Below, piece by piece: positions 2,087-39,354 of a DNA stretch of 64,000 bases. The DNA comes from an uncultured Acidimicrobiia bacterium (GTDB lineage Bacteria > Actinomycetota > Acidimicrobiia > IMCC26256 > JAENVU01), in contig CAWIEA010000009.1 in the NCBI GenBank assembly GCA_963835005.1, positions 444,435 through 508,434 on the forward strand, given 5' to 3'. Every line of letters begins with the position of its first letter. Position 1 is the stretch's first letter. The translations under genes and the position numbers were made by a program. Below the pieces are notes generated by a model, which saw only the letters and a program-made list of their open reading frames with translations, had not been told where the DNA came from and did not search any database.

Positions 2087-2860
2087 TCAGGCGTTCGCGG
2101 CGTCGGAGACGGCCTGCTGGAAGGCCTGCGGGTCGGCGAGCTGCTCGGCGGACATCTGCGTGGTGTTCCCATTCGGGCCGGTGATGAACAGCGTCGGCGT
2201 GGAATTCACACCCCGCTTCGACGCGTTCTCCGCCGACTTTCGCACGAAGCCCTCGTACCGGTTGCTGCGCACGCACTCCTCGAACCGGTCGAACGCCTTG
2301 CCGGTGATCCCGGCCTGGCGGCCGAAGTCCACGAGGCGGTCGGTGGTGAGGAAGCCGGAGTTCTCCGAGGCCTGGTTCGTGTACAGCAGGTCCTGGTACG
2401 GGAAGAACTTGTCCTCGTCGCCGGCGCACACCGCGGCCGCGGCGGCGCGCACCGACTCCTCACCGATGAACGGGAAGTACGTGTACGCGTAGCGGATCTT
2501 CCCCTGCTGCACGAGGTCGTCGACCGTCGAGCCGAAGATGTCGTGGAAGCGCTTGCACGACGGGCACTGGAGGTCGGCGTACTCCTGGACGAGCACGGGG
2601 GCGGACGACTCGCCCTCGATCTCGGAGTCGTTCGGGCCCAGCTGGTGCTTCGGTACGACCACGGGGCTGTTCTCCGTCTTCGATCGGGATGCCTGCACGA
2701 CGATGCCCACCACGAGCGCGATGACAACCACGCCGATCACGATCCACCACTGCATCGCGATCCCGAAGGGCCCCGCCTTCGCGGCCGGGCGCTTCGCCGG
2801 TCCCTTCTTCGGGCCGGGCGACGACGGTCGCTTCGCGGGTCGCTTGCTGCCGGACGCCAT
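2087..2860 (-). CDS. DsbA-family thioredoxin-domain protein, membrane anchored
   Basis: Start chosen at MASGSK. It has a Lys/Pro-rich tail, one TM helix and a thioredoxin fold with a CPSC active site (ADLQCPSCKRF). The ATG overlaps the stop of the MauE/DoxX gene (TGATG). Confidence 0.85.
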   Translation of the reverse strand: MASGSKRPAKRPSSPGPKKGPAKRPAAKAGPFGIAMQWWIVIGVVVIALVVGIVVQASRSKTENSPVVVPKHQLGPNDSEIEGESSAPVLVQEYADLQCPSCKRFHDIFGSTVDDLVQQGKIRYAYTYFPFIGEESVRAAAAAVCAGDEDKFFPYQDLLYTNQASENSGFLTTDRLVDFGRQAGITGKAFDRFEECVRSNRYEGFVRKSAENASKRGVNSTPTLFITGPNGNTTQMSAEQLADPQAFQQAVSDAANA

Positions 2861-3318
2861 CAGGTGCTCATCCTCTCGTCCAGGGAGAGCGCCGAGCGCG
2901 GACCGATCGCGATGAACACCGACAAGCCCAGCAGCACGACGTCCCGCACGATCTCCTCTGCGTACTTGGCGGCGTCGAGGCGGTTCGTGACGCCACCGCC
3001 GCCGAAGCATCCGCAATCGATCGCCAGCCCGCGTGCCCAGGCCGAGCCGATCATCACGATGAACGCGACGAACAGTACCGCCGACACCCAGGCCGCCGGT
3101 CGCGTGGCCAACCCCACCAGGAGCAGGACGGCGAGCGCGAGCTCGACGAACGGGAGGCCCCACGCGATCGGCTTGATCAGTGCCTCGGGGAAGAGCTCAT
3201 AGGCACGGACCGCCCGGGTCGCCGCATCCGGGTCCGAGATCTTCGCGAGCCCGGCCCACGTCCATACGACGGCGAGCGCGAGCCGGGCTGCAAAGGAGAT
3301 CCACCGCCACGCCCTCAC
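2860..3318 (-). CDS. MauE/DoxX family redox-associated membrane protein
   Basis: 152 aa with four hydrophobic helices and a CGCFGG motif typical of the family. It is coupled to the DsbA-like gene. Confidence 0.8.
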   Translation of the reverse strand: MRAWRWISFAARLALAVVWTWAGLAKISDPDAATRAVRAYELFPEALIKPIAWGLPFVELALAVLLLVGLATRPAAWVSAVLFVAFIVMIGSAWARGLAIDCGCFGGGGVTNRLDAAKYAEEIVRDVVLLGLSVFIAIGPRSALSLDERMST

Positions 3319-3334
3319 AGTGTGGCGTCGTTCG

Positions 3335-4006
3335 TCACGCGGTCGGCGTCTTCGAGCGCCGGGCGCGCATCACGAGGAAGACGATGACTCCGAGGACGAC
3401 GATCACACCGATGACGATGGCGATGATCACGCCCGTCGACGAGCTGTCGTCGTGGGATCCGCTGTCGGAGTGCGCCGTCGTCGTGGCCGTGGACGCCGCG
3501 TCGTCTTCGTGCGGGGCATCGCCCTTGACGTAGAGCACGGGGGCCGGGTGCTCCGGCTCCTCGCCGCCCGCGGGCGTGGGCTCGATCCAACGCACGACCG
3601 TGGCGTCGTCGTAGGTCTGGAGCGCCTTGAACTCGACGGTCCGCGTGTCGCCCGGGAAGTCGCCCATCGTGACGGGGAACTCGACCTCGTCGTCACCGAC
3701 GATCGTCCCGCCCGTCCAGGTGATCGACTCGACGTCGCCTGCAGCGTCCTTCTTCACCGCCGCGGTGAAGCCGTTCGCGTCCTCGGCCGTCGCGTCGGTC
3801 AGCTTCGGCGACGCCGGGAAGACGAGCTCGATGCTCGTCGTCTTCGCGGTCTTCGACTCGTTCGGAACCGAGAGCGACGCGTTCACGACGCCCTGCGCGG
3901 TGACCTCCCCCTCGCGCGCGATCTCGACGTGAGCGAACGCCGCCCCTGCCCACAGCATGACCACCCCGGTCACGATGACGCCCACCACTGTCAGCTTGCG
4001 GATCAT
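3335..4006 (-). CDS. ycnI: YcnI family (DUF1775) copper-binding protein
   Basis: Signal peptide ...AGAAFA/HVEI leaves an N-terminal His. The body is YcnI-like, followed by a Ser/Thr/Asp-rich linker and a C-terminal TM anchor. Confidence 0.85.
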   Translation of the reverse strand: MIRKLTVVGVIVTGVVMLWAGAAFAHVEIAREGEVTAQGVVNASLSVPNESKTAKTTSIELVFPASPKLTDATAEDANGFTAAVKKDAAGDVESITWTGGTIVGDDEVEFPVTMGDFPGDTRTVEFKALQTYDDATVVRWIEPTPAGGEEPEHPAPVLYVKGDAPHEDDAASTATTTAHSDSGSHDDSSSTGVIIAIVIGVIVVLGVIVFLVMRARRSKTPTA

Positions 4007-4045
4007 GATGCTCCTGTCTCTCGGTTGTGCTCAGGAACTGTGTGC

Positions 4046-5953
4046 TCAGGAACTGAAGGACACCGTCGTCGTGGCCGCCGACTCGTCGACGTCGCCGAGC
4101 ACGGCCTTCACCGTGAGCTTCCAGTCACCCGCGAACGGGACCGTCAAGCCGGCCGACGTGTAGTGCCCGGGCGCGAGCCGGATCAGCTTCACCTCGATCG
4201 GGGCGATGTCGTTGTCCGGCTGGCTCATCTCGGCGGAGACCTCGGTCGCGTCGACGGTGGTGCCGGTGCCGGTCGGATCCAGCGTGAAGAGGTGCATCTC
4301 GTTCGCACCCCGTGTCGCGGGCGTGATGGTGATGTCGAACGAGACCTTCTCCGTCTTCAAGGTGGCGGTGTACGGCCCGGAGTCCTGGCCGCGAGCCGGA
4401 GCGGCGTTCACGAGCAGCGCGGTGACCGCGAGGATGATCACGCCGAGGATGACCTCGAAGAGGAGCCCGCGACGCAGGCGGCGCTCGGCGGTCGGCTCGT
4501 CGAGCACGTAGCCCTCGGGATATCCCTCGTCCTCGTCGTCGGGAGAGAGCGGGAGACCGCCCCCGCCGGGCGCGACGGGCGGGAGCGTCGCCGTCCCGCC
4601 ACCGCCACCGCCGCTGCCGCCGCCGGACATGGCCGCGGCACCGGCGCCCACCACCGCGCCCGCACCCACGGAGACGGGGGTGTCGAGCTCGTCCTCGGGA
4701 ATCCGCCAGCGCCGGTTCACGACGTCGCGGCTCACCGCGGCTGCGACCATCAAGAAGAGGAAGAAGCCCAGCTTCACGAGCAGGATCCGCCCGTAATCGG
4801 TGTCGACCAGCGCGCCGAAGCTGTCGATCTGGCGGAACGCCTGGAACGTGCCGGTCACCACGATCACACCCATCGACACGAGCGCGTACGCGGAGTACCT
4901 GGGCACGACGTCGCGCAGCGACGGCTCGTCGGCCCTCGGCATGAAGGCGGAGAAGAGCATCACCAGGCCGCCGAGCCAGAGGCCGACGCCGTAGATGTGC
5001 AGCGTGTCGGCCGGGATCGCGATCGACACGAGCGGACCGGTCGACGCGTGGCCGGCCAGCCCGGGAGTCGCGCTGAGCGCGAGCCCGAGCACGCCCGCGG
5101 CCCACGGCCACCACGACGGCAGCGGGTGCTCGATCTCGGGGCCGCGGCTCGGGAGGAGCCGGAGCAGCAACGGCAACGCGAGCAGCAGGAGCACCACGCG
5201 GGCGATGAGGACCCGCCCGTAGCGGGTCGAGAGGACCTGGGACCAGAGGCTCGGGTCGACCACCTTCTCCAGTCCGAGCGCCGCCCCGTAGGGGCCCTCG
5301 AGCGCGAAGGCGAGGAGGGTGAAGCCGACGGTGCAGCCCCACGCCGTCCACACCAGGCGGCGGGCCCGGCGATCGGACCGGCCGCGCCTCCACACCCAGG
5401 CGAGGAACGCGCCGCCGCCGATGAGTCCGGCGAGGCCGAGGAACGCCCCGAAGCGAGCGATGGCGAACACGATGCCGACGATCGAGCTGCCGCCCTGGTC
5501 GGTCAGCAGGCGGTTGGCCAGGCCCTGCGCCTGCTTCGACGTGGTGTTCGAGGAGCCGACGGTGAAGGTGTACGCACCCTGGATCGGGTGCGAGTCCGCG
5601 GAGATCACCCGCCAGGTGACGACGTAGAGGCCGTCGTCCAGCTTCGGGACGGAGACTGCGACCTCGCTGGCCTTGCCGTTCGGATGGTGGGCTTCGCCGA
5701 CATCGACCCGGTCGGCGCGGGAGTCGAACATCCGGACGGCACCGAGCGACGCCTCGACCGGCTCGCTGTACGAGAGCCTGATCTGGGCCGGCGAGCGCCG
5801 CACGGTCGCGCCGGCCCCGGGATCGGTGCCCTCGAGAGTGGCGTGGGCGAACGCAGGGACCGCAGTCAGCCCGATGACGGCGAACACGAGCGCACAGAAG
5901 ACCAGCAGACGACGCACCGTTCGACCCCCCGTCGTTCCCCCCATGGGGGTCAT
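4046..5953 (-). CDS. CopC-CopD fusion copper resistance/uptake protein (YcnJ-like architecture)
   Basis: Signal peptide ...VPAFA/HATLEGTDP precedes the CopC domain. This is followed by a multi-TM CopD domain, a Gly-rich insert (GGGSGGGGGG) and a C-terminal beta domain. My start choice is 5953 (MTPMGG), which forms an ATGA overlap with the anti-sigma stop. The maximal ORF starts at 6013. Confidence 0.85.
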   Translation of the reverse strand: MTPMGGTTGGRTVRRLLVFCALVFAVIGLTAVPAFAHATLEGTDPGAGATVRRSPAQIRLSYSEPVEASLGAVRMFDSRADRVDVGEAHHPNGKASEVAVSVPKLDDGLYVVTWRVISADSHPIQGAYTFTVGSSNTTSKQAQGLANRLLTDQGGSSIVGIVFAIARFGAFLGLAGLIGGGAFLAWVWRRGRSDRRARRLVWTAWGCTVGFTLLAFALEGPYGAALGLEKVVDPSLWSQVLSTRYGRVLIARVVLLLLALPLLLRLLPSRGPEIEHPLPSWWPWAAGVLGLALSATPGLAGHASTGPLVSIAIPADTLHIYGVGLWLGGLVMLFSAFMPRADEPSLRDVVPRYSAYALVSMGVIVVTGTFQAFRQIDSFGALVDTDYGRILLVKLGFFLFLMVAAAVSRDVVNRRWRIPEDELDTPVSVGAGAVVGAGAAAMSGGGSGGGGGGTATLPPVAPGGGGLPLSPDDEDEGYPEGYVLDEPTAERRLRRGLLFEVILGVIILAVTALLVNAAPARGQDSGPYTATLKTEKVSFDITITPATRGANEMHLFTLDPTGTGTTVDATEVSAEMSQPDNDIAPIEVKLIRLAPGHYTSAGLTVPFAGDWKLTVKAVLGDVDESAATTTVSFSS

Positions 5954-6612
5954 CCCAGCACGGGACGATGGCGAGAGGGTGCCACCGGAGATTCGGTCCG
6001 GGCGAGGAGCCACACCGCCACGAGGCCGACGAGCTCGGTGGCGTGGCTCACCTCACCGCTCGGAGCCGCCCGACCCTGGGCGATGTCGAGCACGGAGCTG
6101 GCGACCAGGCAGATGACCACCGCCGCCACCACCGGCAACATCCCGGCCGCCCGCTCCGGCTTCCAGGCCACGAACAGGAGGCCGATGCCCAACGCCACCG
6201 CGAACGACCCGAGATGCCGGGCCACGTGGGTCGGGAGCCCGGCGTCGTCGCCGAGGATCAGGGCGGGGACCGCCATCGTCAGCTGGATCACGGCCACGAT
6301 CGCGAGCGCGAGGCGCAGGAAGTCGGTGCGGTCGTCGCGTGTCACCACCGCGGGTTCGTCGCCGATCGACCGCAGGATCGCGTCGGTGAGGTCGGGGACG
6401 GGCGTGGCCGGCGTGATCCGGGCCGTCCGGTGCAGGGCGGTGGCGTCGGTCGAGAAGGACCGGCACTCGGCGCAGCCGTCGAGGTGCGTCCGCACCACCT
6501 CCTCGGGGAGCCCGGGGTCCTCCCCGTCGAGGGAGGCGGAGATCGCGTCACGGCATCGCTCGCAGTCCATGGAGGGGTAGTCGTCCGTCGGGCCCGTCTG
6601 GTTCCCGGTCAC
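5950..6612 (-). CDS. zf-HC2 anti-sigma factor, membrane spanning
   Basis: MDCERCRDAISASLDGE...HLDGCAECRSF is the zinc-finger anti-sigma N-domain. It is followed by several TM helices. The start is GTG 6612 or ATG 6570. Confidence 0.8.
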   Translation of the reverse strand: MTGNQTGPTDDYPSMDCERCRDAISASLDGEDPGLPEEVVRTHLDGCAECRSFSTDATALHRTARITPATPVPDLTDAILRSIGDEPAVVTRDDRTDFLRLALAIVAVIQLTMAVPALILGDDAGLPTHVARHLGSFAVALGIGLLFVAWKPERAAGMLPVVAAVVICLVASSVLDIAQGRAAPSGEVSHATELVGLVAVWLLARTESPVAPSRHRPVLG

Positions 6613-6630
6613 GCGTCACGATCGCGAGCC

Positions 6631-7204
6631 GTGTCCCGACCGGCGGTCGCCGGGGACCGGCCGGTAACGTCGGCCACCGTGGACGAGCTCACGCGGCTCC
6701 TGCTCGCGGGGCGAGACGGCGACCGCGGTGCGTTGACCGCCGCGATCCGCCGGGCCCAGCCCGACGTCTGGCGGCTGGCCGCGCATCTCGTGGGCCGGTC
6801 CGACGCCGACGACGTCACCCAGGACGTGTTCCTCCGTGCCCACCGCTCCCTGCCGCGGTTCCGGGCCGAGGCGAGCGCCCGTACCTGGCTCCTCACCATC
6901 ACCCGGTGCGCCTGCGCGGACTTCGTGCGCAGCGCGAAGCGACGGCGACGGCTGCACGAGCGCCTCACGACGCAACCCGACGCGACGACCGAGTCCGCGG
7001 CCGACGGCGTGATCGGCATCGACGACCTCGTCGACACGCTCGACAGCGACCGCCGGGCCGCGTTCGTCCTGACGCAGGTGCTCGGCTGCTCGTACGCGGA
7101 GGCAGCCGAGATCTGCGAGACGGCGATCGGCACCATCCGGTCGCACGTCGCGCGCGGCACGCGCGGATCTGCTCGACCAGCTGCGCGCCGCCGACACCGC
7201 GTGA
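6631..7204 (+). pseudogene. ECF-type RNA polymerase sigma-70 factor, frame broken near 7155
   Basis: Region 2 (DVTQDVFLRAHRSLPRF) and region 4 (SYAEAAEICETAIGTIRS) are both present. The natural tail ARADLLDQLRAADTA-stop (TGA 7202-7204) lies in another frame. The start is GTG 6631 or GTG 6679. Confidence 0.8.
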
Positions 7205-8290: not shown

Positions 8291-8715
8291 ATGCCGACCA
8301 TCTTCACCCGCATCATCGAGGGCGATCTCCCCGGCACGTTCGTCTGGCGCGACGACGTCTGCGTGGCGTTCATGTCGATCGCGCCGATCCACCCGGGGCA
8401 CACGCTCGTGGTCCCCCGGGCGGAGGTCGACCACTGGATCGACCTCGAGCCGGACGTCAACGCCCACCTGATGCGCGTCGCCCAGGAGATCGCCGCGCGC
8501 AGCAGGCCGCGTTCGAGCCGGTGCGCATCGGGCTGATCATCGCCGGCCTCGAAGTGCCCCACACGCACGTGCACGTGATCCCGATCGACGGGATGGAGGA
8601 CCTGGACTTCGGCCGGGCCGATGCCGCCACGCCGGCGGACGCGATCGACGACACGGCGGCGCGGTTACGGGTGGCGTTGCGCGACCGGGACGCCACGGGC
8701 GTCCCGGACGAGTGA
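8291..8715 (+). pseudogene. HIT family (histidine triad) protein, frame broken near 8497
   Basis: The gene opens with MPTIFTRIIEGDLPGTFVW. The triad HTHVHVIP is in the second ORF, 8521..8715. Confidence 0.85.
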
Positions 8716-8729
8716 CGGGCGGGGGATCG

Positions 8730-9503
8730 ATGCGACTCGCCGGCGAGCGCGCGCTCGTCACCGGATCGACGTCCGGCATCGGCCGCACGATCGCGACGCG
8801 CTTCGCGGCCGAGGGTGCGGCAGTCGTCGTGCACGGTCGCAACCAGGAGCGCGGCGACGCCGTCGTGCAGGAGATCCGCCACGCCGGTGGCGAGGCGATG
8901 TTCGTGGCCGCGGACCTCTCCGACGAGACCGCCTGCACTGACCTGGTCGGTGCCGCCGCGCTCGCGCTCGGCGGGCTCTCGGTGCTGGTGAACAACGCGG
9001 TCGCGAGCACGGTGGACGAGACCGACGGTCCGGTCGGCGACCTCTCGACCCCGGCGTGGGAGACGAGCCTCCGGGTGAACCTCACCGCGCCGATGTGGCT
9101 GTGTCGAGCGGCGATCCCGCACCTCGTCGCGACCGGTCACGGAACGATCGTGAACGTCTCGAGCCGTGCGGCGGAGCGGTCGTCGCCGGGGCTGACCGCG
9201 TACGCGGCATCGAAGTCGGGGCTCAACGGGCTCACCCGCACGATCGCGGTCGACTATGCGGCCGCCGGCATCCGCTGCAACACGATCAGCCCCGGCTACG
9301 TCGTCAACGAACGACGCGACGGGTCGATGGACCCAACGACCCGACGGCGCCGCGAGGCGCAGCACCTCACGAGGCTCGGCGCCGCCGACGACGTCGCCTA
9401 CGCGGCCGTCTATCTCGCGAGCCGCGAGAGCGAGTACCTCACCGGGATCAACCTCGCGCTCGACGGCGGGAGCAGCGCCGCCCGCGGCGCGGTGCTGGGA
9501 TGA
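8730..9503 (+). CDS. SDR family oxidoreductase
   Basis: It has the TGSTSGIGR, NNAV and YAASK motifs. ATG 8730, with a GGGGGA Shine-Dalgarno, is preferred over GTG 8712. Confidence 0.85.
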   Translation: MRLAGERALVTGSTSGIGRTIATRFAAEGAAVVVHGRNQERGDAVVQEIRHAGGEAMFVAADLSDETACTDLVGAAALALGGLSVLVNNAVASTVDETDGPVGDLSTPAWETSLRVNLTAPMWLCRAAIPHLVATGHGTIVNVSSRAAERSSPGLTAYAASKSGLNGLTRTIAVDYAAAGIRCNTISPGYVVNERRDGSMDPTTRRRREAQHLTRLGAADDVAYAAVYLASRESEYLTGINLALDGGSSAARGAVLG

Positions 9504-10324
9504 ACGGAGCCGGAGCGGATCGGCCGCGTGTGTCGGTCAGCGCGATCTGCACGTACGACTGGTCGCTCGAGCAGGACCTCGCCTTCTACGCCGAGCACGA
9601 CATCGGGGCCGTCGGTGTCTCGCTGGCGAAGCTCGAGCGGCACGGGGTCGAGAACGGTGCCGCACACGTCCGCGACGCCGGGCTGGAGGTCACGAACCTC
9701 ATCGGGCTGGGGCCGTTCCACCTCGCCGCGCCCGAGCAGTGGGACGCGCAGCGCGCCAGGCTGCTCCGCGCGCTCGAAGCCGGCGCGACGGTCGGCGCCG
9801 AGTGCATGGTGTTGACCACGGGTCCGGCCGGAACGCTGAGCTGGGAGGACGCCGCCGACCGCCTCGCCGACGCGCTCGCGCCGGTGCTCGACGGTTCCCG
9901 CGCGGCAGGCATCCCGATCGCGTTGGAGCACACGAACTCGCTGCGTGTCGATGTCGGGTTCGTCCACACGCTGCATGACGCGATCGACCTCGCACGCCGG
10001 CTCGACATCGGCGTGTGCATGGAGATCAACGCGTGCTGGGCCGAGCGCGGCCTCGGTGCGACGATCGCCGGCGGCATCGACCGGATCCGGCTCGTGCAGG
10101 TCAGCGACTACGCGATCGGGACGCTCAGCACTCCGGCCCGGCTCGTGCCGGGCGACGGTGACATCCCGATCGAGCGCATCCTCGGCCAGGTGCGGGACGC
10201 GGGCTACCGGGGCTGCCTCGACCTCGAGCTCATCGGGCCGGCGATCGAGGCCGAGGGCTACGAGTGCGCGGTCCCGCGGGCGCTGGCGGCGGTCGAGGCG
10301 CTGCTCGACCCGCCGGTCAGCTGA
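9500..10324 (+). CDS. Sugar phosphate isomerase/epimerase (xylose-isomerase-like TIM barrel)
   Basis: ATGA overlap with the SDR stop. The 274-aa sequence is TIM-barrel-like (IALEHTN, LDLELIGP). Confidence 0.7.
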   Translation: MNGAGADRPRVSVSAICTYDWSLEQDLAFYAEHDIGAVGVSLAKLERHGVENGAAHVRDAGLEVTNLIGLGPFHLAAPEQWDAQRARLLRALEAGATVGAECMVLTTGPAGTLSWEDAADRLADALAPVLDGSRAAGIPIALEHTNSLRVDVGFVHTLHDAIDLARRLDIGVCMEINACWAERGLGATIAGGIDRIRLVQVSDYAIGTLSTPARLVPGDGDIPIERILGQVRDAGYRGCLDLELIGPAIEAEGYECAVPRALAAVEALLDPPVS

Positions 10325-12494
10325 TCGTCCTGGATGAGCCCGTAGGTCCCGAAGCACATCTCGTCCTCCGTGCCCTCGGCGAAGATGATGTACTTCGGCG
10401 GTCGGTTCGGCTCGCGGCTCCGATCCCAGCTGCACTCCATCCGCAGCGTCTCGCCCACGGTCACGTGGACCGGCTTCGCCAACCCGTAATTCATCTGCCA
10501 GTCGAAGTTCCAGTTCGGGATGTCGAGCAGCACCTTGGAGCTCGGGGTGTCGGGATCCAGCGTGTAGCGGAACGACTGGCCCAGCGTGTGCATGTGCCCG
10601 AGCACACCGACGATCAGACCGTCCGCGGGAACGCGGTAGTCGCAGCTCGTGTGCGCGACACCGTTGCTGTAGCGCGCGGCAAGCGCCTCCTTGGTCTGCC
10701 CGCACAGCCCGAGTAGGCCGGACTCCGTGGCGGCGCCGAACGGTCCGTACTGGCGCGCGGCGTCTCGGACGGCGGCGTCACGGTCGCAGAGCGGCGCCGT
10801 CTGGCCCGGTTCGCACGGGATCTCGACCGGTGCGATCGGGTTGACGATGTCGAGGTGCTTGACCGGCGCGGTCCCGGGGTCGAGCTGGAGCGCCACCGTG
10901 GTCCGGTCGGGCACCGGGGTGAAGTTGTAGTGGTAGTGCACCTGCAGCACGAGCGCGTCGCCGGGCTGCAGCAGGATCCCCGACTGCAGCGGGAAGATCA
11001 CCGGGTCCTGACCGGGGACCCAGCCGGCGACGAGACCGGCCTGACCGTTGAAGCCGTGCAGCCGCGGCCGCCGCGCCGTCTTGTCGCGCGCGAGCTCGGC
11101 AGGGTCGGACCCGAGTAGCAGCTCCACCCCGGCTTGCCGTCCTTGCCGGCGATCGCCTTGCTCGCCTCCACCTGCGACGAGTCGATCTGGAAGATCTGCG
11201 CGTGGTGGATCTCGGCCCGGTTGCCCGGCGTCACCTCGTAGCCGGTCATGAACGTGGGCTTCGTGATGTGCGGGTCGAGCACGAAGCAGCGGTAGTCGTT
11301 CGGGACGCTCAGCGAGCCCGTGTACCCCTGCGGCATCTTCATCGTGACGTCGTGACGCGGGCCCGCGCCCTCGGGGCCCCGCCGCGTCTCCAGCGGCGTC
11401 GAACGGTCCTCGTCGAGCGGCCCACCTGCCCGCGACCAGGCGAGGATCGCGTTCATCGACTTGTCGTCGAGACGCTTCGAGTCCGCGAGCGGCACCCCGA
11501 CGTCCGAGGCCGGCCACGGCGGCATGTACCGCCCCCGGACGACGGTGCCGATGCCGTCGGCGATGTCCTGCGCGTCGCCGGCGTTCTTCACCGTCCAGTG
11601 CGAGGCGCCGACCTGGCCGGCTTCGTGGCACGAGACGCAGTGGGTCTCGAGGATCGGCTGGACGACCTTGCTGAACGAAGGGCTGTCGTCGCTGCGCGGC
11701 GCCGAAGCAGGCGCCTTGATCGCGGTCGGAACCGCGAAGCGGGCGGGATCGACCGCGGTGAGGTTCATCGTGAGGGCAACGTCGTCCGACGTGCTCACGA
11801 GCCCGGCGGTCGAGATCGGCCCGATCCCGAAGGTCGACATCTTCACGTCCGCCTTTGCGGAAGCGTGCAGCTTGCCGTCGCGCAGTGACGCGGTCACGTC
11901 CCACACCACGGCTGCGGGCGTGTCGCGCACCGTCAGCTGGCTCGGCATCTTGAAGTGGTAGTCGCGGCCCGGCTCGATCTGTGCGGGCATGCCGCTCAGA
12001 TCGCCGGCCGTCAGGTACGCGAGCGGGTGGTCGTGCGAATCGAGGTTGCCCTGGCGCAGCTGCGCGTCCCGCAGGTTGTTGTCCGAGTGGAGCTGCTCGA
12101 CGTTGACGACGATCTCACCGACCCGGCTCTTCGGCGGGTTGGTCGCGTTGATCGCGAGGTCGCCGGAGATCCCGTTCGTGGAGCCGATCGCGCGGTTGGC
12201 GTCCTGGCCGAACAGCTTCTCGTCCACCGCGTAGGTGAGGCGCGACGCGGTGGGGTCGATGCGGTACACGGTCTCGCCGGACTCCGCGACGAGCGGGCTC
12301 GACCTCGGCACGGTGTAGTCGACGACCTGGTACTCGGCCGACGTGAGCGTCCGGTACCGGCGCCACGTGTAGTAGCCGGCGCCGGCCACCACCACGAGGA
12401 CGGCGGCCATCGTCCACCACAGCCACCGCAGCCGACGGCGACGCGAAGGTTGCTCGACGGGTGCAACTTCTTCGGGCGTGACCGACGACGTCAT
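10258..12494 (-). pseudogene. Membrane-anchored YceI-like + c-type haem (CXXCH) + PHM/DBH-like copper monooxygenase fusion, frame broken near 11112
   Basis: The start MTSSV at 12494 is followed by a TM helix and a YceI-like domain. HCVSCHE lies at 11625-11639. Copper monooxygenase motifs follow: IHHAQIF, LQVHYHY, GHMHTLG and EMCFGT. The two halves are in ORFs 10998..12956 and 10258..11904. Confidence 0.7.
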
Positions 12495-12599
12495 CGCGAC
12501 CCAACCTCTCGCGGCACCATCCGGTCCCCCCGGTCGCCATCGGAACTGCCTCAGGCTATCGACACCCATGCGCCGGGGACCAGCCATAGGCTCCTGCCG

Positions 12600-13007
12600 A
12601 TGCTGCGTGATCGCCGCCTGCTGAGTCCGATCGCCGCGCTCGTCGTGATCGCGGGGCTGCTCACCGCCTGCGGCGGAGCATCGGACGGACGGCCGACCAC
12701 GCACGCCACCATCCGGTTCGTGAGCCCCGAACCGAACGCGGTGAGCGGCAGCGATGTCACGGTGCGCGTCCACCTGGGGGGCGCCCGGATCGTTCCGTCG
12801 ACCCAGGTCGGAGGGAAGCCGCGCGCGGACCGTGGCCACATCCACGTCTCGCTCGACGGCCAGCTCGTCGCCATGGCGTACGGCGACGACCAGGTCCTGC
12901 CGAACGTCACTCCCGGCCGGCACACCCTGCAGGCCGAGTTCGTCGCCAGCGACCATCTGCCGTTCGCGAACCGGGTCATCGCGGCCGTGACCTTCACCGT
13001 CCGATGA
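12600..13007 (+). CDS. Putative lipoprotein (possibly DUF4399-like)
   Basis: It has a LLTAC lipobox and is about 135 aa. The segment DRGHIHVSLDG...GRHTLQAEF is present. The family assignment is low confidence. Confidence 0.55.
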   Translation: MLRDRRLLSPIAALVVIAGLLTACGGASDGRPTTHATIRFVSPEPNAVSGSDVTVRVHLGGARIVPSTQVGGKPRADRGHIHVSLDGQLVAMAYGDDQVLPNVTPGRHTLQAEFVASDHLPFANRVIAAVTFTVR

Positions 13008-13582
13008 CCGTGGTCACGCGCACCGCGACCCCGGTGCGCAGCGTCCGCGCCACAACCGTGGTCACGCTGGTGATCGGCACCGGTCTGCTGGCGGCACGGC
13101 CCGCCCTCGTCGCGGGCTCGGACCGACCGGACCTCGTGCTGACCGCGCTGTTCATCGCCGTGCTGCTCGGCGGCGCACTGCTCCCGCTCCCGATCGCGAC
13201 GACCCGCGCGCCCAGAGCGGTCCGCGCCCTTGCGCTCTGCGTCGGCGTCGCCGGGTTCGCCGCCGGCCGCCTGGCCGTGGGCGGCTCGCCGCCGTTCGCA
13301 CCGACCGTCCTGATCGTCGTGGCGAACACGCTGGCTGCCGTCGCCGAGGAGGCGTGGTTCCGGCGACTCTGCTTCGGGCTGCTGGCGCCCGGCGGGACGG
13401 TCTTCGCGGTCGTCGGCTCGGCGGTGCTGTTCGCGCTGGTGCACGTCGCGATCTACGGACCCTGGGTCCTCCCGCTGGATCTCGCGGCAGGGCTGATCCT
13501 CGGTTGGCAGCGCGCGGTCACCGGCTCGTGGCACGTCCCCGCGCTCACGCACGCGCTCGCGAACCTGCTGGTCGTGATCTGA
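13004..13582 (+). CDS. CPBP family intramembrane glutamic endopeptidase (CAAX protease-like)
   Basis: ATGA overlap with the upstream gene. It has the EEAWFR and FALVH motifs and is polytopic. Confidence 0.8.
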   Translation: MTVVTRTATPVRSVRATTVVTLVIGTGLLAARPALVAGSDRPDLVLTALFIAVLLGGALLPLPIATTRAPRAVRALALCVGVAGFAAGRLAVGGSPPFAPTVLIVVANTLAAVAEEAWFRRLCFGLLAPGGTVFAVVGSAVLFALVHVAIYGPWVLPLDLAAGLILGWQRAVTGSWHVPALTHALANLLVVI

Positions 13583-13583
13583 C

Positions 13584-14336
13584 GTGCGGCGCCGGACGGT
13601 CGGGATCGGGCTCGCGCTCGTCGCGATCTATGCGGTCGTCCTCGCGGCCACCCTCGCCGGGCACGACGGTGTGCGACCGCTGTACGACGGCTTCGCGCCA
13701 CCGGCCCGCTACCGCTTCGTCGACCCACCGCCGTTCTTCGCCGCCGGGAACGAGACGCCGGACGGAGCGACGGCGACGGTGGCGCTGCACCGGAGCGGGT
13801 CCGCGCCCGTCAGCCTGTCGACCGGAGATGGTCAGGTGTCGCTCAACCTCGCCCCCGGCGCGATTCCCGCGCACGGGTCCGATCGCCACGTGCGGATCTC
13901 GATCACCCCCGAGCCCTCCAAGGGGTTCGGGGCGCTCCCCGGCGGTTTGCGGGCGAACGGGAACGTCTACCGCATCGGCCTGCGCGCCGAGCCCTCCGGG
14001 ACCCGGATCACGGAGGTGACCCGGCCGGGGACGCTCCTCGTGGCGTTGCCCGAGGTGGGTCAGTCGTTCCTCCGGTCGGCGTCGGGACAGGTGTGGTCCC
14101 CCGTCGACGCCAGCACGGTTCCTCCCCGCAATCTGAGCGTCACCACCCCGTTCGCGCGAGCCGGGCTCTACGTCTCCGGCACGCACCTCCCGCTCCTGTC
14201 CGCCCCACCGGGCGAAGGATCGTCGTCGCCGCCCGTCGCGGCGCTCGTCGGAGCCGGGGTCGGGATCGTCGCGCTCGGGCTCGTGATCTGGGCGATCGTC
14301 CGACGCCGCCGGCGGCGACGACCCACCGCGGCCTGA
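13584..14336 (+). CDS. Hypothetical bitopic membrane protein
   Basis: The GTG start lies 1 nt after the CPBP stop. It has an N-terminal TM helix, a roughly 190-aa soluble region, a C-terminal TM helix and an RRRRRR tail. I recognise no family. Confidence 0.5.
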   Translation: MRRRTVGIGLALVAIYAVVLAATLAGHDGVRPLYDGFAPPARYRFVDPPPFFAAGNETPDGATATVALHRSGSAPVSLSTGDGQVSLNLAPGAIPAHGSDRHVRISITPEPSKGFGALPGGLRANGNVYRIGLRAEPSGTRITEVTRPGTLLVALPEVGQSFLRSASGQVWSPVDASTVPPRNLSVTTPFARAGLYVSGTHLPLLSAPPGEGSSSPPVAALVGAGVGIVALGLVIWAIVRRRRRRRPTAA

Positions 14337-14414: not shown

Positions 14415-14915
14415 GTGCATCGCGATTCCACGAGCGCTCTCGCGGGCTCTGGTCCTGGGGGTCGGGACCGCGACCCGGCCCCGACGAGGAGCCGGCGACT
14501 CGCCCGCGGCTCTCGGCGCGGACTGCGACGACCCTCCGGTGGAAGGGTCGTTCGCATCGTCGCCACGGTCTGCCTCGGCGTCGTGATCGCCGCCGCGTGC
14601 TCCTCCGGCTCCGGGTCGTCGTCCACCGCTTCCGCGCCGGAGCCGACCGGTGCCGCCGCGAACGATCCGCGTGTCGTGAGCGGTCGGTCCGTCTACACCG
14701 CGAACTGCGCCCGGTGTCATGGCGTCGACGGTGGGGGCGGTGTCGGTCCGAGCTTCCAGGATGGCGTGCTGCTCCGGAAGTTCGCGACGGTCGAAGACCA
14801 GATCAAGTTCGTCGGTCAGGGCCGCGGGATCATGCCTGCCTTCGGCGGCTCGCTGTCCAAGGCGAAGATCGACGCGGTCGTTCGGTACGAGCGCGAGGTC
14901 CTCTCCCGGCGATGA
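14415..14915 (+). CDS. Class I c-type cytochrome, probable lipoprotein
   Basis: It has a VIAAAC lipobox-like site, the CARCHG haem motif and a distal Met in GIMPAF. The exact start is uncertain. Confidence 0.8.
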   Translation: MHRDSTSALAGSGPGGRDRDPAPTRSRRLARGSRRGLRRPSGGRVVRIVATVCLGVVIAAACSSGSGSSSTASAPEPTGAAANDPRVVSGRSVYTANCARCHGVDGGGGVGPSFQDGVLLRKFATVEDQIKFVGQGRGIMPAFGGSLSKAKIDAVVRYEREVLSRR

Positions 14916-17720: not shown

Positions 17721-18602
17721 ATGTTGGTTCGGGCTGTTCCTCCCCCAGCTGAGAATGTCGTTCGCCACGATCCTCGAACGCACGCTCGCGGCCGAGGCCG
17801 CCGGCTTCGACTCGGTGTGGCTGATGGACCACCTCGCGGCACCGGCCCTCCCCGAGACCGACACGCTCGAGGGCTGGACGCTCGCGTCGGCACTCGCGGT
17901 GCGGACGTCGAGCATCCGGATCGGCCACCTCGTGACCTGCGATCCGTTCCGGCACCCCGCGGTGCTGGCGAAGATGGCCGCCACCGTCGACGTCCTCTCC
18001 GACGGCCGCCTCGAGCTCGGGCTCGGGTGGGGATCGGTCGAGCGCGAGCTCGAGACCTTCGGGTTCGGGAACGCGTGCCGCCGCCGCGGGCGAGGCGGAT
18101 GCGGGAGACGATCGAGATCCTCGATCTGATGTTCACGGGGGAGCCGTTCGACCACGACGGCGAGCACACGCTCCGCGGCGCGATCGGTCGTCCCCGCCCG
18201 GTGCAGCAGCCGCGCCCGCCACTGCACATCGGCGGGGCCGGGCCCAAGCTCACGATGCCGATGGTGCGCGACCACGCGGACTGGTGGAACTGCCCGACCT
18301 ACGCGGTCGACCGGCTGGACGAGCTGCGGCCGCTCGCCGGCGACGCGCGCGTCTCGGTGCAGCACCCGATCGGCCTCGCACCGAACGACGGGAGGCGCGA
18401 CGAGACGGTCGCGCTCGCCGAGCGGCGGTTCGGCCCCTGGGGCGGGCTCGTCGCGGGCACGGGCACCGAAGTCGCGGACGCGCTCGCGGCCGAGGCCGCG
18501 TCCGTCGTCGAGGGCTTCGTGATCCAGCTCACCGACTTCGGCGAACCCGAGACCATCGCCCGCTTCATGGCCGACGTCGCTCCGACCGTCCGCTCCGCCT
18601 GA
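17721..18602 (+). pseudogene. LLM class (luciferase-like) flavin/F420-dependent oxidoreductase, frame broken near 17724 and 18075
   Basis: WFGLFLPQ...FDSVWLMDHL is in the frame of ORF 16708..18129. The C-terminal half (MRETIEILDLMFTGEPFDHDG...) is in ORF 17721..18602. ATG 17721 is one base out of frame with the N-terminal half. Confidence 0.8.
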
Positions 18603-35127: not shown

Positions 35128-35200
35128 TGGGCCGCCCGGGACTCGAACCCGGAACCAACGGGTTAAAAGCCCGCTGCTCTGCCAGTTGAGCTAGCGACCC
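35128..35200 (-). tRNA. tRNA-Lys (anticodon TTT)
   Basis: A 73-nt cloverleaf. The acceptor GGGTCGC pairs with GCGGCCC, the anticodon loop is CTTTTAA and the T-loop is TTCGAGT. CCA is not encoded. Confidence 0.9.
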
Positions 35201-39070: not shown

Positions 39071-39143
39071 GCCCCCATCGTCTAGTGGCCCAGGACGCCG
39101 CCCTTTCAAGGCGGTAACGGGGATTCGAACTCCCCTGGGGGCA
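39071..39143 (+). tRNA. tRNA-Glu (anticodon TTC)
   Basis: 73 nt, GCCCCCATCGTCTAGTGG...TGGGGGCA, with anticodon loop CTTTCAA. Confidence 0.9.
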
Positions 39144-39180
39144 CAGGCCACGGCATCGGTTCGCCGATGAGGTGGTGCAA

Positions 39181-39255
39181 GGTCCTGTGGTGCAGTTAGG
39201 AGTGCACGCCGCCCTGTCAAGGCGGAGGCCGCGGGTTCAAATCCCGTCAGGACCG
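39181..39255 (+). tRNA. tRNA-Asp (anticodon GTC)
   Basis: 75 nt. The acceptor GGTCCTG pairs with CAGGACC. The anticodon loop is CTGTCAA and the T-loop is TTCAAAT. Confidence 0.9.
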
Positions 39256-39281
39256 CAGAGCGAGCCGGTGCTCGCTCGCCC

Positions 39282-39354
39282 GGCCGGGTAGCTCAGTTGG
39301 CAGAGCACACGCCTGAAAAGCGTGGGGTCACCGGATCGACGCCGGTCCCGGCCA
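39282..39354 (+). tRNA. tRNA-Phe (anticodon GAA)
   Basis: 73 nt. The acceptor GGCCGGG pairs with CCCGGCC and the anticodon loop is CTGAAAA. The T-loop reads ATCGACG, with A at the usual T54 position. Confidence 0.85.

What the first reader, a model, noticed from the sequence alone, without database searches (positions are those of the whole stretch)
10258..12494. Single polypeptide combining YceI-like, haem c (CXXCH) and PHM/DBH-type dicopper monooxygenase domains
The repaired product is about 745 aa. It has an N-terminal TM anchor, a YceI-like lipid/polyisoprenoid-binding domain and one CXXCH motif (HCVSCHE, 11625-11639).

Both halves of a peptidylglycine/dopamine-beta-monooxygenase-like fold follow. 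All expected Cu ligands are present: HH (IHHAQ) and H (VHYH) for CuH, and HxH (HMH) and M (EMC) for CuM.

Eukaryotic members of this family are reduced by ascorbate. A fused c-type haem would provide a built-in electron entry point, which is an unusual arrangement.
Basis: partly seen in the sequence, partly recalled or inferred. Interest (0 to 1): 0.65.

Follow-up and report, generated by a model that had tools for sequence, protein, structure and literature searches.

The report
Haem-fused bacterial PHM-like copper monooxygenase
This is one membrane-anchored bacterial gene that joins a lipid/quinone-binding YceI domain and a c-type cytochrome to a copper monooxygenase of the kind that makes noradrenaline and amidated peptides in animals; the family is widespread, has not been studied, and appears to carry its own electron supply in place of vitamin C.

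Summary
The gene lies on the minus strand, 12494 to 10258. It is broken by a 2-bp (CG) insertion in a T(CG)4A run at 11084-11093. Four other genes in the 22 kb syntenic with a close relative are also frameshifted, so I read this as assembly error, not a pseudogene. The repaired product is 744 aa: TM anchor, YceI (Pfam E 1e-14), one-haem cytochrome c (CVSCH plus invariant Met in YMPPW), and a PHM/DBH-type double jelly roll.

The monooxygenase assignment holds. Profile alignment to rat PHM gives 98% probability, E 2e-13. A structure model of an 84%-identical intact homologue has DBH and PHM as its best PDB matches. All six Cu ligands align and are near-invariant in 112 diverse relatives. The PHM peptide-carboxylate binders are replaced by hydrophobic residues, so the substrate is probably not peptidylglycine.

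Intact ~730-aa orthologues occur across Acidimicrobiia. A shorter cytochrome c + PHM-like form is the commonest architecture of the wider bacterial clade. I found no curated family model and no paper on it.

Best reading: an extracytoplasmic copper monooxygenase fed through its own haem c, with YceI probably holding an isoprenoid quinone or lipid. The substrate is unknown.

The parts
10258..12494 (-). Whole gene. The product is 744 aa after repair of one 2-bp insertion. Domain order: TM anchor, YceI, cytochrome c, PHM/DBH-like dicopper monooxygenase.
   Evidence: ORFs and translation. Full-length intact homologues of 55-84% identity.
12366..12428 (-). Single N-terminal transmembrane helix (aa 23-43), preceded by an RRRRLR tail. 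It would anchor the protein with the rest outside the cytoplasm.
   Evidence: The sequence itself. The AlphaFold model of P0001 has a helix at 19-51. The N-in/C-out orientation is inferred from the need for external haem c attachment and from 8 conserved non-haem cysteines.
11754..12266 (-). YceI-like lipid/polyisoprenoid-binding beta-barrel domain (aa 77-247).
   Evidence: Pfam PF04264, E 1.1e-14, above threshold. Foldseek matches to YceI structures 3q34, 5ixh, 1wub, 1y0g, 3hpe and 2x32, with target TM-scores of 0.74-0.83.
11409..11693 (-). Mono-haem c-type cytochrome domain (aa 268-362).
   Evidence: CXXCH and MPPW are invariant in the alignments. The domain profile hits PDB cytochromes c: hydrazine synthase haem domain E 5e-6, PccH 7e-4, CcoP, QcrC. 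The Pfam Cytochrome_CBB3 hit is below threshold.
11625..11639 (-). CVSCH haem c attachment motif (C286, C289, H290).
   Evidence: Present in 98 of 98 relatives that have this region.
11523..11525 (-). Met324 in YMPPWPAS, the candidate sixth (axial) haem ligand.
   Evidence: Invariant in A1, A2 and A4. Met in 99 of 101 relatives. The ligand role is inferred.
10873..11357 (-). N-terminal jelly roll of the monooxygenase (CuH domain, aa ~380-540). It contains the frameshift site.
   Evidence: Pfam Cu2_monooxygen, 19 bits, below threshold. hhalign to rat PHM. Foldseek to DBH and PHM.
11202..11207 (-). H430-H431 (IHHAQ), equivalent to PHM CuH ligands H107 and H108.
   Evidence: hhalign register. Conserved in 105/107 and 106/107 relatives.
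11084..11093 (-). T(CG)4A run carrying a 2-bp insertion that breaks the reading frame. It lies in a variable-length surface loop.
   Evidence: DNA alignment with L001. Removing one CG restores a 744-aa ORF. Four other genes nearby are also frameshifted relative to L001.
10936..10938 (-). H519 (QVHYHY), equivalent to PHM CuH ligand H172.
   Evidence: hhalign aligns QVHY with QVHY. Conserved in 103 of 103 relatives.
10327..10872 (-). C-terminal jelly roll of the monooxygenase (CuM domain, aa 541-722).
   Evidence: Pfam Cu2_monoox_C, 26 bits against a cut-off of 23. hhalign. Foldseek.
10657..10839 (-). Helical insert of about 60 aa with four conserved cysteines (C560, C569, C597, C617). It is absent from PHM and sits at the start of the CuM domain.
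   Evidence: Gap opposite PHM in hhalign. Helices at 571-606 in the model. The cysteines are invariant or at least 90% conserved.
10588..10596 (-). H633-M-H635 (GHMH), equivalent to PHM CuM ligands H242 and H244.
   Evidence: hhalign. Each conserved in 95 of 97 relatives. The middle residue is M or E among orthologues.
10357..10359 (-). M712 (EDEMC), equivalent to PHM CuM ligand M314. The adjacent C713, with C687, matches the PHM disulfide C293-C315.
   Evidence: hhalign. Met in 94 of 95 relatives, Cys in 93 of 95.
10261..10326 (-). Non-conserved 22-aa C-terminal tail. It overlaps the 3' end of the convergent AP_endonuc_2 gene, which ends at 10324.
   Evidence: Alignment A1 shows most homologues end at ..IPDDQ. 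ORF list.

Best explanation
The gene encodes a membrane-anchored enzyme that faces outward from the cytoplasmic membrane. It is a non-coupled binuclear copper monooxygenase of the PHM/DBH type.

Proposed mechanism:
- O2 is activated at a His2Met copper (CuM: H633, H635, M712), which hydroxylates a C-H bond of the substrate.
- The second electron comes from a His3 copper (CuH: H430, H431, H519) about 11 A away, as in PHM.
- The eukaryotic enzymes reload these coppers with ascorbate. Here they would be reloaded by the covalently fused mono-haem cytochrome c (C286/C289/H290, with Met324 as axial ligand).
- The membrane-proximal YceI barrel most likely holds an isoprenoid quinol (menaquinol) and so links the haem to the respiratory quinone pool. 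Less likely, it presents an isoprenoid or lipid substrate.
- The substrate is probably hydrophobic and is not a peptidyl-glycine.

What is shown: domain identities, fold, ligand conservation, fusion as one ORF, and phylogenetic spread.

What is inferred: topology, haem-to-CuH electron transfer, the role of YceI, and the nature of the substrate.

The frameshift in the window is read as an assembly error.
For: One ORF, four modules.
- Intact orthologues of about 730 aa.
- 397 species-level genomes encode a relative. The 80 best are all Acidimicrobiia and include cultured Aquihabitans strains.

Fold.
- An AlphaFold model (pLDDT 83) has DBH 4zel (E 3e-13) and PHM (E ~1e-10, target TM-score up to 0.66) as best PDB matches.
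- Its YceI region matches solved YceI structures.

Ligands.
- hhalign to rat PHM gives probability 98.2%, E 2.4e-13, with all six Cu ligands and the C293-C315 disulfide in register.
- Ligand conservation is 94-100% over 112 relatives.

Haem.
- CXXCH is present in 98 of 98 relatives and Met in 99 of 101.
- The domain profile matches c-type cytochromes.
- Cytochrome c is fused in 81 of 100 representatives with a complete C-terminus in this clade. This argues that the haem is functionally coupled to the copper domain.

Substrate.
- The PHM carboxylate and backbone binders R240, N316 and Y318 are replaced by L/A/F, L/F/I and T/S/A.

YceI with haem as a redox module.
- Cellvibrio Cbp2D has YceI-like X158 (which binds ubiquinone-8) followed by cytochrome c X183, and X183 reduces copper LPMOs in vitro (PMC8981238).
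- BcnA (YceI family) is genetically linked, and sometimes fused, to cytochrome b561 LcoA. Homologues bind Ubi-8 (PMC9113575).

Context.
- Copper-handling genes lie nearby: CopCD, YcnI and DsbA in the window and in L001; PCuAC and Sco1 directly downstream in L003.

Assembly error.
- Five of about 23 genes are frameshifted relative to L001.
Against: - There are no biochemical data for any member.
- The Pfam N-domain and cytochrome hits are below threshold for this protein.
- A full-length profile found no PHM or DBH in the PDB at E<1. The link needed a trimmed, diversified profile or structure comparison.
- YceI domains have no demonstrated quinol-oxidising chemistry.
- Two-domain relatives work without YceI, so YceI is not needed for electron input in general.
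- No gene neighbour is conserved across the family, so context gives no hint of the substrate.
- The frameshift could be a real mutation in this strain. No reads were available.
Confidence: 0.65

Rival explanations
1. Lipid or isoprenoid carrier model. The YceI domain is not an electron module. It extracts a polyisoprenoid or lipid (menaquinone, carotenoid, polyprenyl phosphate or fatty amide) from the membrane and presents it to the copper site for hydroxylation. The haem c is reduced by an external donor, such as the small lipoprotein cytochrome c at 14415-14915.
For: - YceI proteins bind many hydrophobic ligands. The structural matches include polyisoprenoid-, erucamide- and antibiotic-binding members 1wub, 3hpe and 7bwl.
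- The substrate-pocket equivalents are hydrophobic.
- A separate cytochrome c gene lies beside the locus in the window, and a small cytochrome c gene lies about 2.5 kb upstream in about 12 loci of the Iamiaceae/Aquihabitans group.
- A fatty-acid desaturase gene is adjacent in 14 loci.
Against: - Both known YceI + haem pairings are interpreted as quinone-based redox modules.
- The YceI-then-cytochrome c order mirrors Cbp2D.
- The neighbouring cytochrome c and desaturase genes are lineage-specific.
Confidence: 0.2
2. Envelope antioxidant or oxidase. The protein is not a C-H hydroxylase. Like the BcnA-LcoA system, it would quench lipid peroxyl radicals or reduce O2 or peroxide at the copper site, using electrons from quinol passed through the haem.
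For: - The YceI family member BcnA with a cytochrome b561 protects against lipid peroxidation.
- Giant relatives fuse peroxiredoxin-like AhpC/TSA and thioredoxin domains to cytochrome c and Cu2_monoox_C (P0219).
Against: - The complete PHM ligand set, including the CuM Met that is specific to monooxygenase chemistry, is conserved.
- No known member of the PHM fold is a peroxidase or an oxidase (my own knowledge).
Confidence: 0.08
3. True peptide-modifying enzyme. It would hydroxylate or amidate a secreted or lipidated peptide, perhaps one processed by the divergently transcribed CPBP/Rce1-like intramembrane protease.
For: - PHM is the closest structurally characterised relative apart from DBH.
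- A DUF4399-like lipoprotein, a CPBP protease and a membrane protein form a divergent trio next to the gene in the window, in L001-L003, and in 13 of 80 species loci.
Against: - The PHM residues that clamp the glycine carboxylate (R240, Y318, N316) are not conserved.
- The trio is confined to one subclade, and no precursor-peptide gene was seen.
Confidence: 0.04
4. Decayed gene. The frameshift is real and the locus is a pseudogene, or it makes two separate products: a 498-aa YceI-cytochrome c protein and a truncated C-terminal piece.
For: - The public record annotates only the 498-aa ORF (P0036).
- The break is in the deposited sequence.
Against: - Both halves keep every catalytic residue, and tblastn identity to L001 is 83-87% on each side of the break.
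- The lesion is a CG-repeat indel.
- Four other syntenic genes (aldehyde dehydrogenase, luciferase-like, HIT, Lon-substrate-binding) are also frameshifted within 22 kb. This is typical of uncorrected long-read assemblies.
- The break cuts the CuH jelly roll in two, so the pieces could not fold.
Confidence: 0.03

Closest known systems
Peptidylglycine alpha-hydroxylating monooxygenase (PHM), dopamine beta-hydroxylase (DBH) and tyramine beta-monooxygenase: the eukaryotic non-coupled binuclear copper monooxygenases (Pfam Cu2_monooxygen + Cu2_monoox_C)
   Same: - Double jelly-roll fold.
- CuH His3 and CuM His2Met ligands in register.
- The C293-C315-type disulfide next to the Met ligand.
- Located outside the cytoplasm (lumenal in the eukaryotic enzymes).

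   Different: - Only 12-14% identical in the structural alignments and 20% in the hhalign.
- Below the Pfam threshold for the N domain.
- The PHM substrate binders R240, N316 and Y318 are absent.
- A Cys-rich helical insert of about 60 aa is added.
- A cytochrome c is fused in place of dependence on soluble ascorbate. DBH has an N-terminal DOMON domain in the same place.
- Bacterial, with a TM anchor and a YceI domain.
Cellvibrio japonicus Cbp2D / Saccharophagus Cbp2E (YceI-like X158 + cytochrome c X183/X132), proposed redox partners of copper LPMOs
   Same: - A YceI-like domain is followed by a c-type cytochrome in one secreted polypeptide.
- The YceI-like domain binds ubiquinone-8.
- The cytochrome reduces a copper monooxygenase.
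(structural match to 2x32/2x34)
   Different: - There the copper enzyme (an LPMO with a mononuclear histidine-brace site) is a separate protein, and the module carries CBM2 and FN3 domains.
- Here the copper enzyme is a PHM-type dicopper protein fused in cis, and the module is anchored by a TM helix.
BcnA-LcoA (YceI-family lipocalin + cytochrome b561) lipid-peroxidation defence of Burkholderia; the E. coli yceI-yceJ pair
   Same: - Recurrent pairing, and sometimes fusion, of a YceI domain with a haem protein at the outer face of the membrane.
- Isoprenoid quinone proposed as the bound cofactor.

   Different: - The haem there is b-type in a membrane bundle, not c-type.
- There is no copper domain.
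- The function there is radical quenching rather than hydroxylation.
Cytochrome c-tethered copper nitrite reductases (for example Ralstonia pickettii NirK); from my own knowledge, not tested here
   Same: A c-type cytochrome is fused to a copper enzyme as a built-in electron donor.
   Different: The copper fold (cupredoxin trimer) and the chemistry (nitrite reduction) are unrelated.

Membership tests
PHM/DBH-type non-coupled binuclear copper monooxygenase | Two consecutive jelly-roll (beta-sandwich) domains with the PHM topology | tested here: met
   Foldseek of the model of P0001 (84% identical): 4zel E 3.2e-13; PHM entries E about 1e-10, target TM-score 0.51-0.66.
PHM/DBH-type non-coupled binuclear copper monooxygenase | CuH site: three His (PHM H107, H108, H172) | tested here: met
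   IHH aligns with VHH and QVHY with QVHY in hhalign. Conserved in 105/107, 106/107 and 103/103 relatives.
PHM/DBH-type non-coupled binuclear copper monooxygenase | CuM site: HxH plus Met (PHM H242, H244, M314) | tested here: met
   GHMH aligns with VHTH and DEMC with DEMC. Conserved in 95/97, 95/97 and 94/95 relatives. A few distant members lack a CuM His (P0133, P0145, P0224).
PHM/DBH-type non-coupled binuclear copper monooxygenase | Scores above the Pfam gathering thresholds for both PF01082 and PF03712 | tested here: not met
   PF03712 scores 26.0 against 23 (passes). PF01082 scores 19.0 against 30 (fails). Of two-domain relatives, P0156 passes both and P0177 just misses PF01082 at 29.9.
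PHM/DBH-type non-coupled binuclear copper monooxygenase | Binds two Cu and carries out O2-dependent C-H hydroxylation with an external reductant (ascorbate in the known members) | not testable with these tools
   Requires purified protein.
Peptidylglycine alpha-hydroxylating monooxygenase (orthologue in function) | Residues that bind the peptidyl-glycine carboxylate and backbone (R240, N316, Y318) | tested here: not met
   The equivalents in the window protein are L, F and T. Across 112 relatives they are L/A/F/G/M, L/F/I and T/S/A.
YceI-like domain (PF04264) | Profile match above threshold and the eight-stranded lipocalin-like barrel | tested here: met
   E 1.1e-14, 55.5 bits against a cut-off of 23.7. 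Foldseek target TM-scores of 0.74-0.83 to 3q34, 5ixh, 1y0g, 1wub and 2x32.
YceI-like domain (PF04264) | Binds a polyisoprenoid, quinone or lipid ligand | not testable with these tools
   Needs a ligand analysis of purified protein.
Class I-type c cytochrome | CXXCH haem attachment motif and a distal Met ligand | tested here: met
   CVSCH is present and Met324 in MPPW is invariant. The axial role of the Met is inferred.
Class I-type c cytochrome | Sequence profile similarity to solved c-type cytochromes, or a Pfam score above threshold | tested here: inconclusive
   Pfam Cytochrome_CBB3 scores 18.7 against 27 (fails). The domain profile does hit PDB cytochromes c: 5c2v haem domain E 5e-6, PccH 4rlr E 7e-4, CcoP, QcrC.
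Cbp2D-like YceI + cytochrome c redox partner module | A YceI-like domain N-terminal to a mono-haem cytochrome c domain in one exported polypeptide | tested here: met
   Domain order. Cbp2D architecture from PMC8981238.
Cbp2D-like YceI + cytochrome c redox partner module | Carbohydrate-binding module, and action in trans on a separate LPMO | tested here: not met
   No CBM or FN3 hit. The copper enzyme is fused in cis and is of PHM type, not LPMO type.

The most novel reading that the evidence does not exclude
A self-contained 'quinol-to-copper' wire. The membrane-proximal YceI barrel holds menaquinol taken from the membrane. The fused haem c oxidises it one electron at a time and feeds CuH and then CuM. 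Respiratory quinol would then directly power extracytoplasmic C-H hydroxylation of an envelope lipid or isoprenoid in monoderm Actinobacteria, which have neither ascorbate nor a periplasmic cytochrome c pool. This would be the first natural PHM-type enzyme with a defined protein electron donor, and the first catalytic role assigned to a YceI domain.
Probability: 0.2. Interest if true: 0.8.

Novelty: new variant of a known kind. Interest (0 to 1): 0.62.

Why it matters
Known enzymes. PHM, DBH and TBM are the textbook non-coupled binuclear copper monooxygenases. They are known and studied only from eukaryotes. How CuH is reloaded, and how its electron crosses about 11 A of solvent to CuM, is still debated.

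What this family offers:
- A large bacterial clade with the full ligand set and, in most members, a covalently attached haem c.
- A natural system in which the donor is defined, optically visible and fixed in stoichiometry. That suits kinetic and structural study of the electron-transfer step.
- A second, independent case, after LPMOs with Cbp2D, in which bacteria couple a YceI + cytochrome c module to a copper oxygenase. This suggests a general solution to supplying electrons outside the cell.
- An unknown reaction of the Acidimicrobiia cell envelope. Public annotation currently names these proteins only 'YceI family protein', so the copper half goes unnoticed.

Tried and rejected
- First splice of the two frames at PGWSCYS|GSDPAELA. 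Rejected: frame A continues to match the consensus (GPxLPS) for about 8 more residues, and the DNA alignment puts the lesion in the CG repeat.
- Full-length family profile against PDB sequences. No PHM or DBH hit at E<1. The relation appeared only with a trimmed, diversified profile and by fold.
- Looking up the window's own annotated product P0036 among encoding contigs. Not on record.
- Searching for a universally conserved neighbour. None was found. The DUF4399-like/CPBP/membrane trio (13 of 80 loci), the FA desaturase (14 loci) and the small cytochrome c (12 loci) are each confined to a subclade, so I did not use them to assign a substrate.
- Seven of the nine full-text literature searches sought bacterial PHM/DBH homologues or cytochrome c fusions. 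Nothing on this family. One reference states only that PHM is widespread in eukaryotes.
- Megablast of the gene against plasmids. No match.
- Promoter and terminator scan of 10100-12750. Nothing above the shuffled background.
- Rfam scan of the window. Only four tRNAs, far from the locus.
- Model coordinates were not exposed, so the haem-to-CuH distance could not be measured.


Full report
**What is in the sequence**

The feature is a gene on the minus strand, from the ATG at 12494 to the stop at 10258-10260. It is read as two ORFs. The upstream one (12494 to 10998) is what the public record annotates (P0036, 498 aa, 100% identical). The downstream part lies in another frame.

Aligning the DNA with the intact orthologue in locus L001 (84% protein identity) shows two extra bases in the window inside a T(CG)4A run at 11084-11093. 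Deleting one CG gives an uninterrupted 744-aa product whose loop length equals that of the orthologue.

tblastn of the 23 proteins called in L001 against the window shows four more syntenic genes split between frames: an aldehyde dehydrogenase near 19267, a luciferase-like oxidoreductase near 18076, a HIT protein near 8500-8518, and a Lon-substrate-binding protein near 803. One frameshift per 4-5 kb, several in CG-rich repeats, is the signature of an uncorrected long-read assembly. Many relatives come from MAGs whose contigs are named 'contig_NNNN'. I therefore treat the gene as intact in the organism. This is an inference; no reads were available.

**Domain anatomy**

- Pfam finds YceI at residues 77-247 (E 1.1e-14) and Cu2_monoox_C (26 bits, cut-off 23). 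It finds sub-threshold Cu2_monooxygen (19 bits against 30) and Cytochrome_CBB3 (18.7 bits against 27).
- The N-terminus has an arginine-rich tail and one hydrophobic helix (aa 23-43).
- There are ten cysteines. Two are in CVSCH. The other eight are invariant or at least 90% conserved among orthologues.
- Covalent haem attachment and disulfides both require the body of the protein to lie outside the cytoplasmic membrane. This topology is inferred.

**Testing the copper monooxygenase assignment**

A full-length profile found no PHM or DBH among PDB sequences, so I tested the assignment in two other ways.

1. An AlphaFold2 model of P0001, built on 77 homologues (mean pLDDT 83.3), was searched against the PDB with Foldseek.
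- The top hits are human dopamine beta-hydroxylase 4zel (E 3e-13) and some thirty rat PHM entries (E about 1e-10, target TM-score up to 0.66).
- YceI structures follow, including the ubiquinone-binding X158 domain of Saccharophagus (2x32/2x34).

2. I verified the rat PHM catalytic-core sequence against PDB 4e4z. I then aligned to it a 44-sequence profile of the catalytic region with hhalign.
- Result: probability 98.2%, E 2.4e-13.
- In that alignment IHH pairs with VHH (H107/H108) and QVHY with QVHY (H172).
- GHMH pairs with VHTH (H242/H244) and DEMC with DEMC (M314 and C315).
- The cysteine equivalent to C293 also aligns.

Over 112 sequences (the window protein, P0001, and representatives at the 50% identity level), the six ligand positions hold His or Met in 94-100% of sequences that have the column.

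Two differences from PHM stand out.
- A helical insert of about 60 residues with four conserved cysteines follows the domain junction.
- The residues that clamp the glycine carboxylate and backbone in PHM (R240, N316, Y318) are replaced by hydrophobic or small residues throughout the family. That argues against peptidyl-glycine as substrate and for something hydrophobic.

**The haem domain**

- CXXCH is present in 98 of 98 relatives that have the region. The Met of an (Y)MPPW motif is present in 99 of 101.
- A 29-sequence profile of the roughly 100-residue domain hits c-type cytochromes in the PDB: the haem domain of hydrazine synthase alpha (E 5e-6), PccH (E 7e-4), CcoP, and actinobacterial QcrC.

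**How common it is**

- The word-indexed search found more than 100 full-length orthologues of 55-84% identity. They are named 'YceI family protein' or 'polyisoprenoid-binding protein YceI/mono/diheme cytochrome c family protein'.
- In one-genome-per-species GTDB contigs, 397 stretches encode a relative. The best 80 are all Acidimicrobiia: Microthrixaceae, Iamiaceae, Ilumatobacteraceae, and cultured Aquihabitans strains including A. daechungensis DSM 27986.
- An exhaustive profile search of 1.84 billion representatives gave 1780 hits at E<1e-30.
- Among the 150 best, I classified those with a complete C-terminus using sub-profiles. Sixty-four are cytochrome c + PHM-like, 17 are YceI + cytochrome c + PHM-like, and 18 are PHM-like only, of which about ten are full length.
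- Two-domain members P0156 and P0177 reach or nearly reach the Pfam thresholds for both copper domains.
- There are also giant fusions with AhpC/TSA, thioredoxin-like and haem-binding domains (P0219) or EF-hands (P0210).

The haem fusion is therefore the rule in this bacterial clade. The YceI addition is a derived form that I saw only in Acidimicrobiia among the loci fetched.

**Genomic context**

No neighbour is conserved across the family.
- In the window's subclade the gene is divergently adjacent to a DUF4399-like lipoprotein (12600-13004), a CPBP/Rce1-like protease (13004-13582) and a 250-aa membrane protein (13584-14336). This holds in the window, in L001-L003, and in 13 of 80 species loci.
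- Copper-handling genes are close. In the window and L001 there are an ECF sigma/anti-sigma pair, CopCD, YcnI/DUF1775, DoxX/MauE and a DsbA-like protein. In L003, PCuAC and Sco1 lie directly downstream.
- In the Iamiaceae/Aquihabitans group a soluble-type fatty-acid desaturase (14 loci) and a small cytochrome c (12 loci) are nearby.
- The window has an extra lipoprotein cytochrome c gene (14415-14915; Pfam E 3e-14) that L001 lacks.

These hints fit a secreted cuproenzyme. They do not identify the substrate.

**Mechanism proposed**

By homology with PHM and DBH (established knowledge), CuM activates O2 and abstracts a hydrogen atom from the substrate, and CuH supplies the second electron. Each turnover needs two electrons from outside, supplied by ascorbate in eukaryotes.

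Here the fused haem c is the obvious entry point. The grounds are its near-universal fusion in the clade and precedent. The isolated cytochrome c domain of Cellvibrio Cbp2D reduces copper LPMOs, and that protein also carries a YceI-like domain N-terminal to the cytochrome, a domain family shown to bind ubiquinone-8 (PMC8981238). A second YceI + haem pairing, BcnA with cytochrome b561 LcoA, is genetically linked and sometimes fused. It is interpreted as a quinone-based redox couple (PMC9113575).

I therefore favour YceI as a holder of menaquinol at the membrane surface that feeds the haem. The main rival is that YceI carries the lipid substrate. Both are inferences.

Further rivals, scored in the rivals section:
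- an antioxidant or oxidase role;
- a true peptide-modifying role linked to the CPBP operon;
- a real pseudogene.

**Comparison with what is known, and novelty**

- The catalytic core meets the structural and ligand criteria of the PHM/DBH family. It fails the Pfam threshold for the N domain and lacks the PHM substrate-binding residues. It works like a PHM-type enzyme but is not an orthologue of PHM, DBH or TBM.
- No NCBIfam model matches any member.
- Seven full-text searches found no study of bacterial PHM-like proteins or of their cytochrome c fusions. One paper describes PHM as widespread in eukaryotes (PMC8812541).
- The searchable library omits most subscription journals, so absence from it is not proof of absence.

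I rate this a new variant of a known kind: a bacterial, haem-fused and here YceI-fused branch of the non-coupled binuclear copper monooxygenases.

**Verdict**

The 'unusual arrangement' turns out to be a large unstudied family rather than a one-off. Interest is 0.62. A copper-enzyme specialist would want to see it, because it offers a defined intramolecular electron donor for a much-debated mechanism and points to an unknown envelope reaction. The components are all known kinds, and nothing about function has yet been demonstrated.

Noticed in passing
window ~803, ~8500-8518, ~11084-11093, ~18076, ~19267: Five of about 23 genes syntenic with locus L001 are split between reading frames in the window: Lon-substrate-binding, HIT, the target gene, luciferase-like oxidoreductase and aldehyde dehydrogenase. 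Several breaks lie in CG-rich repeats. This looks like systematic indel error in the assembly, so other ORF calls in this window should be treated with care.
   Followed up: partly
window 14415-14915 (+): A 166-aa lipoprotein-like mono-haem cytochrome c (CARCH; Pfam Cytochrome_CBB3 E 3e-14) sits between the 250-aa membrane protein gene and the DUF2332 gene. The close relative L001 has only 79 bp at this position. It is a possible external donor to the fused haem.
   Followed up: partly
window 12600-14336 (+): A divergently transcribed trio: a DUF4399-like lipoprotein with a GHIHVSLDG motif (weak Pfam hit, 20 bits), a CPBP/Rce1-like intramembrane protease, and a 250-aa membrane protein with no family. 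It is adjacent to the target gene in L001-L003 and in 13 of 80 species loci, all in one subclade. Its function and any link to the enzyme are unknown.
   Followed up: partly
window 2102-7158 (mostly -): A copper and disulfide handling cluster 3-8 kb from the target gene: ECF sigma (6679-7158) and zf-HC2 anti-sigma (5953-6570), a CopC-CopD fusion (4061-5917), YcnI/DUF1775 (3338-4006), MauE/DoxX (2866-3309) and a DsbA-like thioredoxin (2102-2860). It is syntenic with L001. In L003, PCuAC and Sco1 lie directly downstream of the orthologue.
   Followed up: partly
window 10258-10324: The target gene's last 22 codons are a non-conserved Ser/Ala-rich tail. They overlap by 66 nt the 3' end of the convergent xylose-isomerase-like TIM-barrel gene (9500-10324). 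Most homologues stop right after ..IPDDQ.
   Followed up: no
proteins P0133, P0145, P0224 (relatives, not in the window): A few family members have lost one or both CuM histidines (GLMH, PHLG, GYMQ in place of GHMH) while keeping the rest of the fold. They may be non-catalytic or differently metallated paralogues.
   Followed up: no
proteins P0219 (1251 aa) and P0210 (1064 aa): Giant relatives fuse the cytochrome c + PHM-like unit to other domains. P0219 adds AhpC/TSA peroxiredoxin-like, thioredoxin-like and Haem_bd domains. P0210 adds EF-hands. This hints at thiol- or peroxide-linked electron supply in other lineages.
   Followed up: no
L038 8290-9207 (-) and 3023-3460 (+), and equivalent loci: In the Iamiaceae/Aquihabitans subclade a soluble-type fatty-acid desaturase (FA_desaturase_2, E 1e-67) lies directly downstream (14 loci). 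A 145-aa cytochrome c lies about 2.5 kb upstream (12 loci).
   Followed up: partly
window 35128-35200 (-), 39071-39354 (+): Four tRNA genes, three of them in a tight cluster. They are unrelated to the finding.
   Followed up: no
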